From Rikenella microfusus (GTDB taxonomy: Bacteria; Bacteroidota; Bacteroidia; Bacteroidales; VadinHA17): a stretch of 64,000 bases of DNA. The stretch is taken from assembly GCA_022736275.1 (NCBI GenBank), contig DZBJ01000002.1, positions 26,288 to 90,287 of the forward strand, read 5' to 3'. Every line of letters begins with the position of its first letter. The stretch's first letter is position 1. Position numbers and translations under genes: made by a program. Below are positions 17,459 through 19,615 of the stretch, in pieces. Under the pieces are notes generated by a model that was not told the DNA's origin, searched no databases, and saw nothing but the letters and a program-made list of their open reading frames with translations.

Positions 17459-19615
17459 ATGAAGACATACTCAACAGACCACGTAAGGAACATTGCGCTG
17501 CTGGGGAACTCTGGCTCAGGAAAGACCACCCTCGCGGAAGCAATGCTTTTCAACGGCGGGGTGATCGAGAGGCGGGGTTCCGTGGAAGCAAAGAACACCG
17601 TCTCAGACTACAAGCCGATTGAGCAGGAGAACCGCAACTCTATCTTTTCAACCGTACTCTACGCAGAGTACAGGGACAAAAAGATAAATATACTTGACAC
17701 CCCGGGTCTTGATGACTTCTCAGGCGGAGTTATCTCATCGATGTATGCTGCTGACTCGGTGATGCTGGTCATCAACGTGCAGAACGGCGTGGAGGTCGGA
17801 ACGGAGATACAGTTCAGGCATGCTTCCAAATTCAATAAGCCCCTGATCATAGTCGTGAACGGGCTTGATCATGAGAAGGCTAACTTCGAAAAGACAATTG
17901 AGATGCTTCACGAGCGTTTCGGCAACAATGTAACCATGGCCCAGTTCCCGGTGAACGAAGGCGTTGGCTTCAACACCATTGTTGACGTCATCAGCATGAA
18001 GATGCTTCGCTACGGCAAGGATGGCGGCAAGGCCGAGGTAGTGGATATTCCGGCCGAGCACCTGGCAAAGGCTGAGGAGCTGCATGCAGCCCTGACCGAG
18101 AAGGTTGCCGAGAGCGATGAGTCGCTCATGGAACTCTTCTTCGCCAATGACAAGCTCACCGAACAGGAGATAGGCCGCGGTCTTCGCGAAGGTCTCCTCA
18201 AGAGGGGTATCTTCCCTGTCTTCTGCGTATCGTCAAAGGGTAACATAGGCGTTGACAGGCTGCTCGATTTTGTGGCTGCCTCCACGCCCGCTCCTGCCGA
18301 CATGCCTGCCCTGAAGAACTCGAAGGGCACCGAGGTGAAATGCAATCCTGCCGGTCCGGCATCAGTCTTCGTCTTCAAGACAACCCTCGAGGAGCATATC
18401 GGTGAGATCAACTACTTCAGGGTGATGTCAGGCAAGATCGGAGAGAACCTTGATGTCATCAACACCAGCAACGGCACCAAGGAACGGCTGTCACAGATCT
18501 TCATCTGCGCCGGGAAGAACCGCACGCGCGTCCCCGAGATACATGCAGGTGACATAGGAGGTTTTGTCAAGCTCAAGAACACAAAGACCAACCATACTCT
18601 CAATGCACCGGGCAATGACTGGACATATGAGAACATGAAGTTCCCGGAGCCCAAGTTCCGTGCAGCCATCAAGCCTCTCAGCGAAAGTGACGAGGAGAAG
18701 ATGGGCGAATCTCTCAACCGCATGCACCAGGAAGACCCGACAATCATTGTGGAGTACTCCAAGGAGCTTAAGCAGATAATCATTCACGGTCAGGGCGAAT
18801 ACCATCTCAACATCCTGAAATGGCACCTCGACAATATTTTCAAGATAGAGACGCAGTATATTGCACCCAAGATTCCTTACCGCGAGACCATCACCAAGTC
18901 TGCACAGGCTGACTACCGTCACAAGAAGCAGTCGGGCGGTGCAGGTCAGTTCGGCGAGGTGCACATGATCATTGAGCCGTATGAGGAGGGTTCTGAAGCC
19001 AAGTCGATGATGAAGATCGCAGGCAAGGAGATAAAGCTGGCCAACCGCGACAAGGAGGAGATTGAGCTCCCGTGGGGCGGCAAGCTCGTTTACATGAACT
19101 GTATTGTGGGCGGATCCATTGATGCACGTTTCATGCCCGCAATCCTCAAGGGCATCATGGAGAAGATGGAGGTAGGCCCGCTGACGGGCTCCTACGCACG
19201 TGACATCAGGGTCTACGTCTATGACGGCAAGATGCACCCGGTTGATTCAAACGAAATATCATTCCGTCTGGCAGGACGAAATGCCTTCAGCACCGCCTTC
19301 AAGAACGCCGGTCCGAAGATTCTTGAGCCGATCTATGAGGTTGAGATCATGGTTCCTTCCGACCGTATGGGTGATGTCATCAGCGACCTTCAGGGGCGCC
19401 GCGGTATGGTGCTGGGCATGTCAAGCGAAAAGGGGTTTGAGGTCATCAAGGCAAGGGTTCCCCTGGCAGAGATGAACAAGTATTCAACCGCTCTCAGCTC
19501 GCTCACCGGCGGCCGCGCGATGTTCACGATGAGGTTCCTGGAGTATTCGCAGGTACCCGGCGAGGTTCAGGATTCCGTCATAAAGGCCTACGCTGGAGAA
19601 GAGGACGAGGAATAG
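17459..19615 (+). CDS. EF-G paralog with degenerate GTPase motifs (EF-G2-like)
   Basis: 718 aa, five-domain EF-G architecture by length and similarity. G1 is GNSGSGKT, G3 is DTPGLDDF (catalytic His replaced by Leu), G4 is NGLD (not NKxD). Confidence 0.85.
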   Translation: MKTYSTDHVRNIALLGNSGSGKTTLAEAMLFNGGVIERRGSVEAKNTVSDYKPIEQENRNSIFSTVLYAEYRDKKINILDTPGLDDFSGGVISSMYAADSVMLVINVQNGVEVGTEIQFRHASKFNKPLIIVVNGLDHEKANFEKTIEMLHERFGNNVTMAQFPVNEGVGFNTIVDVISMKMLRYGKDGGKAEVVDIPAEHLAKAEELHAALTEKVAESDESLMELFFANDKLTEQEIGRGLREGLLKRGIFPVFCVSSKGNIGVDRLLDFVAASTPAPADMPALKNSKGTEVKCNPAGPASVFVFKTTLEEHIGEINYFRVMSGKIGENLDVINTSNGTKERLSQIFICAGKNRTRVPEIHAGDIGGFVKLKNTKTNHTLNAPGNDWTYENMKFPEPKFRAAIKPLSESDEEKMGESLNRMHQEDPTIIVEYSKELKQIIIHGQGEYHLNILKWHLDNIFKIETQYIAPKIPYRETITKSAQADYRHKKQSGGAGQFGEVHMIIEPYEEGSEAKSMMKIAGKEIKLANRDKEEIELPWGGKLVYMNCIVGGSIDARFMPAILKGIMEKMEVGPLTGSYARDIRVYVYDGKMHPVDSNEISFRLAGRNAFSTAFKNAGPKILEPIYEVEIMVPSDRMGDVISDLQGRRGMVLGMSSEKGFEVIKARVPLAEMNKYSTALSSLTGGRAMFTMRFLEYSQVPGEVQDSVIKAYAGEEDEE

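What the first reader, a model, noticed from the sequence alone, without database searches (positions are those of the whole stretch)
17459..19615. EF-G paralog with the catalytic His and the NKxD guanine-specificity motif both lost, divergent from the str operon
A direct comparison with the canonical fusA in the same window (14050-16152) shows:
- G1: AHIDAGKT in fusA, GNSGSGKT in the paralog
- G3: DTPGHVDF in fusA, DTPGLDDF in the paralog (the GTP-hydrolysis His becomes Leu)
- G4: NKMD in fusA, NGLD in the paralog
- Switch I: RGITI in fusA, RNSIF in the paralog

The protein keeps full EF-G length (718 aa). As I recall, a GTPase-inactive EF-G2 that supports slow translation and gut colonisation has been described in Bacteroides thetaiotaomicron. 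This gene may be an orthologue, but loss of NKxD raises the question of whether it binds guanine nucleotides at all. It shares a 400-nt divergent control region with rpsL.
Basis: partly seen in the sequence, partly recalled or inferred. Interest (0 to 1): 0.55.

Follow-up and report, generated by a model that had tools for sequence, protein, structure and literature searches.

The report
Known starvation-type EF-G2 paralog, new member
This gene is a clear orthologue of EF-G2, the Bacteroides translation factor already shown to move ribosomes slowly without burning GTP, so the protein is ordinary; the only new things are that it sits back-to-back with the main ribosomal-protein operon and that an undescribed structured RNA lies between them.

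Summary
It passes the curated NCBIfam model for "elongation factor G2" of Bacteroidota (1196 bits, cutoff 1000, full length). It also aligns without a single gap, at 58% identity, to the solved B. thetaiotaomicron EF-G2 (PDB 7UVP/8DMF).

The motif changes are family traits. B. thetaiotaomicron has DCPGSDDF and NQLD, and none of 201 relatives has His or Lys at these positions. "NKxD lost" is overstated: only the Lys is replaced. The P-loop GKT, Ser61 (at the Thr position of RGITI), DxPG, Asn134, Asp137 and the G5 S-A/S-K all persist, so nucleotide binding is probably kept. The gene is under strong purifying selection (dN/dS about 0.05).

Two context features go beyond the finding:
- The divergent fusA2/rpsL-rpsG-fusA arrangement recurs in 70 of 80 related genomes, unlike in B. 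thetaiotaomicron. No Cur box is present.
- The spacer holds a roughly 130-nt structured RNA on the rpsL-sense strand. It is supported by covariation and is absent from Rfam.

The protein is a new member of a known kind, of low interest in itself, and the RNA is a modest lead.

The parts
17459..19615 (+). fusA2, coding for EF-G2 (718 aa plus stop)
   Evidence: ORF. NCBIfam NF058620 scores 1196.3 bits against a cutoff of 1000, covering 1-717/717. Five EF-G domains in Pfam. 58% identity with 0 gaps to PDB 7UVP/8DMF. dN/dS 0.04-0.07.
17504..17527 (+). G1/P-loop GNSGSGKT (aa 16-23). The GKT is kept; the His and Asp of AHIDAGKT that contact the sarcin-ricin loop are replaced.
   Evidence: G16, S20, G21, K22 and T23 are invariant in 201 relatives. 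Gly16 and Leu25 are the EFG II type I positions.
17630..17644 (+). Switch I/G2 pentamer NRNSI (aa 58-62), homologous to RGITI, with Ser61 at the Thr position
   Evidence: The gapless alignment to B. thetaiotaomicron YGYSV. The EFG II consensus is xxxSx. Ser61 is present in all variants listed.
17696..17719 (+). G3/switch II DTPGLDDF (aa 80-87), with Leu84 in place of the catalytic His
   Evidence: Position 84 is L191/M4/S2/F2/A2 and never His in 201 relatives. D80, P82 and G83 are invariant. B. thetaiotaomicron has DCPGSDDF.
17858..17869 (+). G4 NGLD (aa 134-137). Asn and Asp are kept; Lys is replaced by Gly.
   Evidence: N134 and D137 are invariant. Position 135 is G181/H9/S5/Q3/E3 and never Lys. 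B. thetaiotaomicron has NQLD.
18230..18238 (+). G5 S-S-K (aa 258-260)
   Evidence: S258 in 186/201, A/S259 in 197/201, K260 in 191/201.
18926..18952 (+). Domain IV tip loop I, KQSGGAGQF (aa 490-498). Together with HPVDS (aa 593-597, nt 19235-19249) these are the translocation-critical loops, and both are kept.
   Evidence: K490, Q491, S492, G493, G494, G496, Q497, F498 and H593-S597 are invariant in alignment A3. They align with [10 protein letters not shown] and HPVDS of fusA.
18974..19057 (+). Domain IV insertion (about aa 506-533), absent from canonical EF-G
   Evidence: A 28-residue gap in fusA in the BLASTP alignment, the only large indel. Fixed length in 200/201 relatives and the same length in B. 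thetaiotaomicron EF-G2. Found in only a few of 150 nearest 50%-identity cluster representatives.
17400..17407 (+). Candidate Bacteroidetes-type -7 promoter box TATTTTTG for fusA2 (inferred)
   Evidence: It matches TAnnTTTG (my own knowledge of Bacteroides promoters). TTATT(A/T)TTTTG is conserved in nearly all related loci, including distant ones. It stays close to fusA2 when insertions split the spacer in L058, L062 and L063.
19642..19669 (+). Terminator-like hairpin 27 nt after the fusA2 stop codon, so fusA2 looks monocistronic
   Evidence: A 12-bp stem found by the scan, though with a weak T tail. The next gene, 19722-21872, is convergent.
14050..17056 (-). str operon genes divergent from fusA2: rpsL (16682-17056), rpsG (16186-16662) and canonical fusA (14050-16152)
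   Evidence: ORFs. fusA scores 1026.7 bits on TIGR00484 EF-G. The same arrangement is found in 70 of 80 related genome loci.
17213..17345 (-). Conserved structured RNA element on the rpsL-sense strand, a candidate str-operon leader. It is not part of fusA2. P1 is CAGG/CCUG, P2 is a 12-bp helix, and the apical loop GUAAGUUUAC..AAAA is conserved.
   Evidence: RNAalifold gives -16.1 kcal/mol on the minus strand against -3.2 on the plus strand. 96% of cells are paired, 6 pairs covary, and 0/500 shuffles reach the observed values. CM R1 finds it in 89 of 89 loci of the clade. There is no Rfam match.
17340..17347 (-). -7-like box TTTCTTTG on the minus strand at the 5' edge of the RNA element, a candidate distal str promoter back-to-back with the fusA2 promoter (inferred, weak)
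   Evidence: CTTTGC is invariant in the alignments. L058 has the exact TATTTTTG at this position. In L059 the element begins 74 nt after the preceding same-strand ORF.

Best explanation
The gene is fusA2. It encodes the Bacteroidota-type EF-G2, a member of the divergent EFG II subfamily that coexists with the canonical, essential EF-G.

By orthology with the B. thetaiotaomicron protein, it most likely binds the pre-translocation ribosome and promotes slow tRNA-mRNA translocation without hydrolysing GTP. That lets the cell keep making protein at lower energy cost when carbon or energy is scarce.

Shown here:
- Family membership.
- The five-domain architecture.
- Retention of the domain IV tip loops that contact the decoding centre.
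- The family-specific domain IV insertion.
- Absence of the switch II His in every relative examined.
- Retention of the residues that bind Mg-GTP/GDP.
- Strong purifying selection.
- A gene with its own promoter-like box and a terminator-like hairpin.

Inferred, not shown:
- Absence of GTPase activity.
- Slow translocation.
- Starvation induction.
- Binding of guanine nucleotide, probably with faster exchange because the NKxD lysine is missing.
For: - NCBIfam NF058620 'elongation factor G2' scores 1196.3 bits against a cutoff of 1000, covering 1-717/717.
- There is a gapless alignment at 58% identity to 7UVP/8DMF, the B. thetaiotaomicron EF-G2.
- Pfam finds GTP_EFTU, EF-G_D2, EFG_III, EFG_IV and EFG_C.
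- The 28-aa domain IV insertion is shared with B. thetaiotaomicron and is of fixed length in 200/201 relatives.
- In 201 relatives, His84 and Lys135 are never present. GKT, D80xPG, N134 and D137 are invariant, and G5 S-A/S-K is conserved.
- Loop I KQSGGxGQF and HPVDS are invariant.
- dN/dS is 0.04-0.07.
- The literature on the characterised orthologue agrees:
  - fusA2 is induced 238-fold on carbon limitation while fusA falls 10-fold (PMC6989115).
  - EF-G2 'enables GTP-independent translation' (PMC10294740).
- The EFG II features Gly16, Leu25 and xxxSx are present (PMC3150367).
Against: - No biochemistry exists for this protein.
- Identity to the characterised orthologue is only 58%.
- The residue replacing His differs: Leu here, Ser in B. 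thetaiotaomicron.
- Loss of the His does not by itself prove a dead GTPase. [quoted passage not shown]
- The Cur (BT4338) box that drives fusA2 in Bacteroides is absent here and from all 70 related spacers scanned, so the regulation may differ.
- The closest genomes are sediment, soil and wetland MAGs, not gut bacteria.
- The primary paper (Han et al. 2023, EMBO J) is not in the library. Details such as the '26-residue region' rest on my memory of its abstract.
Confidence: 0.85

Rival explanations
1. It is a ribosome-trapping or translation-slowing factor rather than a translocase. [quoted passage not shown]
For: Mycobacterial EF-G2 also has altered G1, G2 and G3 motifs, including His to Tyr, and is described as trapping the post-translocated ribosome (bioRxiv 10.64898/2026.05.25.727771). 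PDB 9K0Z matches the query at E = 5.8e-101. Both proteins fall in the broad EFG II-like group.
Against: The query is far closer to B. thetaiotaomicron EF-G2 (E = 5.9e-286, gapless) than to the mycobacterial protein. The domain IV tip loops are invariant here, whereas in MsmEF-G2 these loops are reported to be shifted away from the tRNA. The domain IV insertion is specific to the Bacteroidota type.
Confidence: 0.07
2. It is still a working, perhaps weak, GTPase like T. thermophilus EF-G2, with another residue or the ribosome supplying catalysis.
For: 1WDT has Tyr at the His position and TKLD in G4, yet it is reported to be GTPase-active. All nucleotide-binding determinants are conserved here. 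The acidic G' patch residues E218, E221 and E225 are invariant.
Against: The characterised orthologue with the same insertion is reported to lack GTPase activity. Position 84 varies freely among L, M, F, S and A within the family, which is not what a catalytic residue does. The P-loop His and Asp that contact the sarcin-ricin loop are gone.
Confidence: 0.06
3. It is a nucleotide-free pseudo-GTPase that no longer binds guanine nucleotides.
For: The NKxD lysine is replaced by Gly. Switch I is unlike RGITI.
Against: GKT, Ser61, DxPG, Asn134 and Asp137 are invariant, and G5 is conserved, across 201 relatives under strong purifying selection. Conservation of exactly these residues is hard to explain without nucleotide binding. 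From my own knowledge, lysine substitutions in NKxD of Ras (K117) speed nucleotide exchange rather than abolish binding.
Confidence: 0.02
4. It is a tetracycline ribosomal protection protein. The PDB and UniProt name of the B. thetaiotaomicron orthologue is 'Tetracycline resistance protein TetQ'.
For: The deposited molecule name of 7UVP/8DMF.
Against: tet_protect scores 249.7 bits against a cutoff of 775. Tet(Q) scores 111.5 against 1425, and Tet(M) 113.2 against 1420. The entry title of 8DMF calls it EF-G2. The name is an old automatic annotation.
Confidence: 0

Closest known systems
Bacteroides thetaiotaomicron EF-G2 (fusA2, BT_2167; PDB 7UVP/8DMF; NCBIfam NF058620)
   Same: Same length (718 aa) and a gapless alignment at 58% identity. 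The domain IV insertion is the same. There is no switch II His and no NKxD Lys. The P-loop is G-x-S-G-S-GKT and the switch I Ser is kept. It coexists with a canonical fusA.
   Different: Leu84 instead of Ser. NGLD instead of NQLD. NRNSI instead of YGYSV. G5 is S-S-K against G-G-K. The gene lies divergently next to rpsL-rpsG-fusA, whereas in B. thetaiotaomicron fusA2 is BT2167 and fusA is BT2729. No Cur box is upstream. The host lineage is environmental, not gut.
EFG II subfamily of Margus et al. 2011, for example T. thermophilus EF-G2 (1WDT) and mycobacterial EF-G2 (9K0Z/9K10)
   Same: Gly16 and Leu25. A relaxed G2 (xxxSx) with Ser. His replaced in switch II, by Tyr or Phe in most of the 150 nearest cluster representatives. 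Always accompanied by an EFG I copy.
   Different: Only about 35-44% identity. Most members lack the roughly 30-aa domain IV insertion and keep NKxD. The NCBIfam 'EF-G-like protein EF-G2' model NF009377 scores 470.8 bits against a cutoff of 890. Reported activities differ: Thermus is GTPase-active, and the mycobacterial protein traps ribosomes.
Canonical EF-G (fusA, same window, 14050-16152)
   Same: Five-domain architecture. Domain IV tip loops. DxPG and GKT.
   Different: 33% identity. It has [13 protein letters not shown], His and NKMD and no domain IV insertion. TIGR00484 scores 1026.7 bits for fusA but 530.9 bits, below the 659.4 cutoff, for the paralog.
E. coli str-operon S7 translational operator (for the RNA element, not the protein)
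   Same: A structured RNA on the str mRNA strand that could serve ribosomal-protein feedback. The operon content is the same: rpsL-rpsG-fusA.
   Different: From my own knowledge, the E. coli operator lies in the rpsL-rpsG intercistronic region. Here that spacer is only 19 nt and the element lies upstream of rpsL. No sequence or Rfam relationship was found. The ligand is unknown.

Membership tests
Bacteroidota EF-G2 (NCBIfam NF058620; B. thetaiotaomicron BT_2167) | Scores above the curated cutoff of the family HMM over its full length | tested here: met
   1196.3 bits against a cutoff of 1000, residues 1-717 on profile 1-717/717.
Bacteroidota EF-G2 (NCBIfam NF058620; B. thetaiotaomicron BT_2167) | Collinear full-length similarity to the experimentally characterised protein | tested here: met
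   418/718 identical with 0 gaps to the 7UVP/8DMF chain. The top Foldseek hit is 8DMF 'ribosome-bound B. thetaiotaomicron EF-G2', although the model is of low confidence (pLDDT 61).
Bacteroidota EF-G2 (NCBIfam NF058620; B. thetaiotaomicron BT_2167) | Family-specific insertion in domain IV, absent from EF-G1 (the published '26-residue region', recalled from the abstract of Han et al. 2023) | tested here: met
   A 28-aa gap in fusA opposite aa 506-533, the only large indel. It has the same length in B. thetaiotaomicron and in 200/201 relatives. That this insertion is the published region is my inference.
Bacteroidota EF-G2 (NCBIfam NF058620; B. thetaiotaomicron BT_2167) | Switch II catalytic His absent | tested here: met
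   Leu84. His is never found at this position in 201 relatives, and B. thetaiotaomicron has Ser.
Bacteroidota EF-G2 (NCBIfam NF058620; B. thetaiotaomicron BT_2167) | No ribosome-stimulated GTP hydrolysis, yet supports slow translocation | not testable with these tools
   Needs recombinant protein and ribosomes. Known only for the B. thetaiotaomicron orthologue.
Bacteroidota EF-G2 (NCBIfam NF058620; B. thetaiotaomicron BT_2167) | Coexists with a canonical fusA | tested here: met
   fusA at 14050-16152 scores 1026.7 bits on TIGR00484.
Bacteroidota EF-G2 (NCBIfam NF058620; B. thetaiotaomicron BT_2167) | Promoter carries a Cur/BT4338 box (wwwTATGTTnTAnAACATAwww) that drives induction on carbon limitation | tested here: not met
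   There are 0 matches at up to 3 mismatches in the whole window. The best match in 71 spacers (window plus 70 related loci) has 3 or more mismatches, close to what shuffles give. Expression itself cannot be tested. This feature describes regulation in the genus Bacteroides rather than defining the protein family.
EFG II subfamily (Margus et al. 2011) | Type I positions Gly16 and Leu25; G2 relaxed to xxxSx with Ser; G1, G3 and G5 retained | tested here: met
   G16, L25 and S61 are read from the translation. The criteria come from PMC3150367. G4 deviates from the subfamily consensus NKxD.
Canonical EF-G (TIGR00484 equivalog) | Score above cutoff; [18 protein letters not shown] and NKxD | tested here: not met
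   530.9 bits against a cutoff of 659.4, in two stretches. All four motifs are altered.
Tetracycline ribosomal protection proteins (Tet(Q)/Tet(M)/Tet(O)) | Score above the cutoff of NF012153 or of the allele-level models | tested here: not met
   249.7 bits against 775, 111.5 against 1425, and 113.2 against 1420.
Ribosomal-protein leader RNA (for the element at 17213-17345, minus strand) | Conserved secondary structure with covariation, on the sense strand upstream of a ribosomal-protein operon | tested here: met
   16 pairs, 96% paired, 6 covarying pairs, and 0/500 shuffles reach the observed score. Many G-U pairs fix the strand. The element stays with rpsL when the distance to fusA2 changes.
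Ribosomal-protein leader RNA (for the element at 17213-17345, minus strand) | Lies within the operon's 5' UTR and binds a protein encoded by the operon | not testable with these tools
   No transcription start-site data are available. A second -7-like box at 17098-17105 (minus strand), close to rpsL, could mean the element lies upstream of the main start site.

The most novel reading that the evidence does not exclude
In this clade of environmental Bacteroidales, the 402-nt spacer would be a single switch module for the two translocases. The fusA2 promoter and a distal str-operon promoter would sit back-to-back about 60 bp apart. The str transcript (rpsL-rpsG-fusA) would begin with a previously undescribed structured leader RNA of about 130 nt. 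EF-G1 and EF-G2 would then be set reciprocally from one control region, independently of the Cur box used in gut Bacteroides.
Probability: 0.2. Interest if true: 0.55.

Novelty: new member of a known kind. Interest (0 to 1): 0.25.

Why it matters
For the protein, little changes. It extends a characterised, HMM-defined family, the GTP-sparing EF-G2 translocase, from gut Bacteroides to free-living sediment and wetland Bacteroidales. This suggests the factor is a general starvation adaptation rather than a gut-colonisation speciality.

The survey also shows which G-domain residues the family does and does not need. The His and the NKxD Lys are dispensable; the P-loop, the switch I Ser, DxPG, Asn and Asp are not. 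That is useful for anyone designing nucleotide-binding experiments.

The context is of more interest. The alternative translocase is hard-wired next to the operon encoding the canonical one. The spacer also carries an unannotated, covariation-supported RNA upstream of rpsL, which could be a new ribosomal-protein leader class.

Tried and rejected
- **Cur/BT4338 box.** I searched the window and 71 spacers, the window plus 70 related loci. Nothing was better than chance.
- **Local Crp/Fnr regulator.** I scanned ten neighbouring or similarly sized ORFs against Pfam and found none.
- **RNA on the fusA2-sense strand.** I tested whether the conserved spacer block is an RNA on the plus strand. It is not: -3.2 kcal/mol, 7 invariant pairs and no covariation.
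- **Promoter and terminator scan.** The sigma-70 scan of the locus found nothing in the spacer, as expected for Bacteroidetes. I also compared the blocks by eye with the sigma-54 consensus and found no -12 GC element.
- **Rfam.** I ran it at E <= 10 on the spacer and at gathering thresholds on the whole window. The only hit is a TPP riboswitch elsewhere.
- **Primary paper.** Han et al. 2023 is not held, whether looked up by DOI or by PMC id, and citing papers give only one-line summaries.
- **Structure prediction.** The AlphaFold model built from 42 close relatives is poor (pLDDT 61, pTM 0.53). I used it only to recover the title of PDB entry 8DMF and draw no structural conclusions from it.
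- **Metagenome pattern scan for the RNA.** About 60% of the 120 stretches have neither rpsL nor EF-G2 nearby and show odd, fixed spacings. I treat them as chance or unrelated conserved genes.
- **Covariance model in distant loci.** R1 finds nothing in L065-L080, where EF-G2 is 66-70% identical, so the RNA appears confined to one clade.
- **Possible pseudoknot or alternative pairing.** The loop GUAAGUU could pair with the downstream AACUUAC. This could not be tested because both segments are nearly invariant.
- **Mimicry of 16S rRNA.** I considered it by eye, from remembered rRNA sequence only, and found nothing convincing.
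Full report
**1. Observation**

The ORF list gives 17459..19615 (+), ATG start, 718 aa. It also gives the canonical fusA at 14050..16152 (-), rpsG at 16186..16662 (-) and rpsL at 16682..17056 (-). The spacer between rpsL and the paralog is therefore 17057-17458, 402 nt.

The translation contains GNSGSGKT (aa 16-23), DTPGLDDF (aa 80-87) and NGLD (aa 134-137). 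fusA contains [20 protein letters not shown] and RGITI. The two proteins are 33% identical over their full length. The only large indel is a 28-residue gap in fusA opposite aa 506-533 of the paralog. Pfam finds all five EF-G domains.

- The pentamer homologous to RGITI is NRNSI (aa 58-62), not RNSIF. This follows from the gapless alignment to the B. thetaiotaomicron protein, whose YGYSV is the published Bacteroidetes G2 variant. It places Ser61 at the position of the Mg2+-coordinating Thr.
- In G4 only the Lys is replaced. Asn134 and Asp137 remain.

**2. What it is**

Against NCBIfam, the best model is NF058620 'EFG2_Bacteroid, elongation factor G2'. It scores 1196.3 bits against a curated cutoff of 1000 and covers residues 1-717 of a 717-position profile. 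Other models fall below their cutoffs:
- Canonical EF-G equivalog TIGR00484: 530.9 against 659.4.
- 'EF-G-like protein EF-G2' model NF009377: 470.8 against 890.
- Ribosomal protection proteins: 249.7 against 775.
- TypA/BipA: 135.9 against 757.

Against the PDB, the best chain is 7UVP_A/8DMF (718 aa, E = 5.9e-286), aligned 1-718 to 1-718. BLASTP gives 418/718 identities and no gaps. The depositors' molecule name is 'Tetracycline resistance protein TetQ', an old automatic name. The Foldseek table gives the entry title of 8DMF as 'Cryo-EM structure of the ribosome-bound Bacteroides thetaiotaomicron EF-G2'.

The B. thetaiotaomicron sequence reads GSSGSGKT, YGYSV, DCPGSDDF and NQLD. The characterised protein therefore also lacks both the His and the NKxD lysine.

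**3. Family-wide view**

I aligned 201 sequences: the window protein, the B. thetaiotaomicron protein, 120 database relatives and 79 proteins translated from related genome loci. The results:
- Position 84 is L191/M4/S2/F2/A2 and never His.
- Position 135 is G181/H9/S5/Q3/E3 and never Lys.
- G16, S20, G21, K22, T23, D80, P82, G83, N134 and D137 are invariant.
- Ser61 is present in every listed variant.
- G5 is S-(A/S)-K in nearly all.
- The domain IV insertion has the same length in 200 of 201.

In a 42-sequence alignment, the domain IV tip motifs KQSGGxGQF and HPVDS are invariant.

dN/dS against six relatives is 0.04-0.07, matching the canonical fusA at 0.05-0.08.

A search of 1.84 billion 50%-identity cluster representatives shows that the family collapses to essentially one full-length representative, at 58% identity. 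The next representatives follow at 44% and 42%, and then come many EFG II-like proteins of about 690 aa at 35-42%. Among the aligned representatives the His position is mostly Tyr or Phe, with only 4 carrying His. NKxD is usually kept, and the roughly 30-aa insertion is confined to three others, P0121, P0125 and the fragment P0131.

Margus et al. 2011 defined this EFG II subfamily. Its features are Gly16, Leu25, G2 relaxed to xxxSx, and constant pairing with an EFG I copy. They listed a Bacteroidetes subgroup with YGYSV. The window protein has G16, L25 and S61.

**4. Mechanism**

The held literature describes the B. thetaiotaomicron orthologue as follows:
- fusA2 (BT2167) is the gene most induced on carbon limitation (238-fold), while fusA (BT2729) falls 10-fold.
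- It is activated directly by Cur/BT4338 through a 22-bp box.
- It is needed for gut colonisation (PMC6989115).
- It 'enables GTP-independent translation' (PMC10294740).

The primary paper (Han et al. 2023, EMBO J 42:e112372) is not held. From memory of its abstract, a 26-residue region unique to EF-G2 is essential for protein synthesis and for release from the ribosome, and is responsible for the absence of GTPase activity. I infer that this region is the domain IV insertion, because it is the only indel of that size.

By orthology, I commit to the same mechanism here: slow translocation without hydrolysis, which spares GTP during starvation.

I also note a caveat. The missing His alone does not prove inactivity. 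T. thermophilus EF-G2 has DAPGYGDF and TKLD, yet it is reported to be GTPase-active. An H88Y change nearly abolishes activity in mycobacterial EF-G1, and mycobacterial EF-G2 is proposed to trap ribosomes.

This argues that guanine nucleotide is still bound. Loss of the lysine more likely weakens binding or speeds exchange (my own knowledge of Ras K117 mutants).

**5. Context and regulation**

The closest genome loci, at 95% EF-G2 identity, are MAGs labelled Bacteroidales or Rikenellaceae from salt-flat sediment, soil and wetland surveys.

In 70 of 80 related genome loci, with EF-G2 identity down to 66%, rpsL-rpsG-fusA lies divergently upstream of fusA2, and the spacer is mostly 400-430 nt. About 33 metagenome loci show rpsL with a divergent EF-G2, and roughly a dozen more are cut off before rpsL. 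In B. thetaiotaomicron the two genes are some 560 locus tags apart.

No Cur box occurs in the window or in any of the 71 spacers scanned, the window plus 70 related loci. None of ten neighbouring or similarly sized ORFs tested is a Crp/Fnr protein.

A Bacteroidetes-type -7 box, TATTTTTG (17400-17407), is conserved in nearly all loci. A 12-bp hairpin follows the stop codon at 19642-19669. The gene therefore looks monocistronic.

**6. An RNA in the spacer (outside the finding proper)**

A block at about 17213-17345 is far better conserved than its flanks, with invariant CTTCCCGA, ACTTAC and CGGTACTCCTG on the plus strand.

It tracks rpsL, not fusA2. In L058, L062 and L063, insertions separate it from the fusA2 promoter while its distance to rpsL stays at about 200-280 nt. 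In L059, where fusA2 is co-directional and a 229-aa ORF intervenes, it sits about 100 nt upstream of rpsL in the rpsL orientation.

RNAalifold gives -3.2 kcal/mol and no covariation on the plus strand. On the minus strand it gives -16.1 kcal/mol with 16 pairs. Counting on 41 sequences, and then on 86 distinct sequences, gives:
- 96% of cells paired.
- 6 pairs with changes on both sides.
- Many G-U pairs, which would be A-C mismatches on the other strand.
- 0/500 shuffles reaching the observed covariation score.
- Slid controls falling to 37-64% paired.

A covariance model finds the element in all 89 loci of the clade that were searched and in none of the more distant loci. It matches no Rfam family and is not among the Bacteroidia leaders of Eckert and Weinberg 2020.

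The rpsL-rpsG spacer here is only 19 nt. An S7 operator of the E. coli kind therefore has no room there, which makes an upstream leader plausible.

Whether the element lies inside the str 5' UTR is unknown. A -7-like TTTCTTTG sits at its 5' edge (17340-17347, minus strand), about 60 bp from the fusA2 -7 box. Another -7-like box lies close to rpsL (17098-17105, minus strand).

**7. Verdict**

The protein is a new member of a known, characterised family and is of low interest by itself. The conserved adjacency to the str operon and the unannotated structured RNA are the parts worth a further look.

Noticed in passing
window 17213-17345 (minus strand): A conserved RNA structure of about 130 nt on the rpsL-sense strand, upstream of rpsL. 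P1 is CAGG/CCUG, P2 is a 12-bp helix rich in G-U pairs with six covarying pairs, and the apical loop GUAAGUUUAC..AAAA is conserved. It is followed by a hairpin, AACUUAC..GUAAGUU, whose 5' arm could alternatively pair with the apical loop. It is not in Rfam and is confined to one Bacteroidales clade.
   Followed up: partly
window 14050-19615; loci L001-L080: The alternative translocase gene fusA2 is divergently adjacent to rpsL-rpsG-fusA in 70 of 80 related genomes, whereas the two are far apart in B. thetaiotaomicron. In L059 fusA2 is instead co-directional, about 1.1 kb upstream of rpsL.
   Followed up: partly
window about 17420-17450; the same position in related loci: The presumed fusA2 5' UTR carries a conserved AT-rich motif, TATATAA followed by T(T/A)TGTATAAC(A), about 25-35 nt before the ATG in many relatives (window: ATATATAATATATATAACAACA). 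Its function is unknown. It is not a Cur box.
   Followed up: no
loci L023, L033, L041, L068 (between the fusA2 promoter and the ATG); L058, L062, L063 (between the RNA element and the promoter): GC-rich palindromic insertions of 100-300 nt, such as GAGAGAGGAGCGGATGGAGGC...GCCTCCATCCGCTCCTCTCTC, and short tandem repeats (AAAGGC/AAAGAC in L063) have landed in the spacer in some lineages. They look like miniature mobile or REP-like elements.
   Followed up: no
window 57723-57818 (minus strand): A TPP riboswitch (RF00059, 65.7 bits) upstream of an 813-aa ORF (55239-57680). A thiamin pyrophosphokinase gene is at 53584-54210.
   Followed up: no
window 19722-23445 (minus strand): Convergent with fusA2 are a 716-aa protein with a signal-peptide-like N-terminus and HEAT repeats, and a 522-aa DUF6850 protein. 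Both are uncharacterised.
   Followed up: no
window 16663-16681: The rpsL-rpsG intercistronic spacer is only 19 nt, too short for an E. coli-type S7 operator.
   Followed up: no
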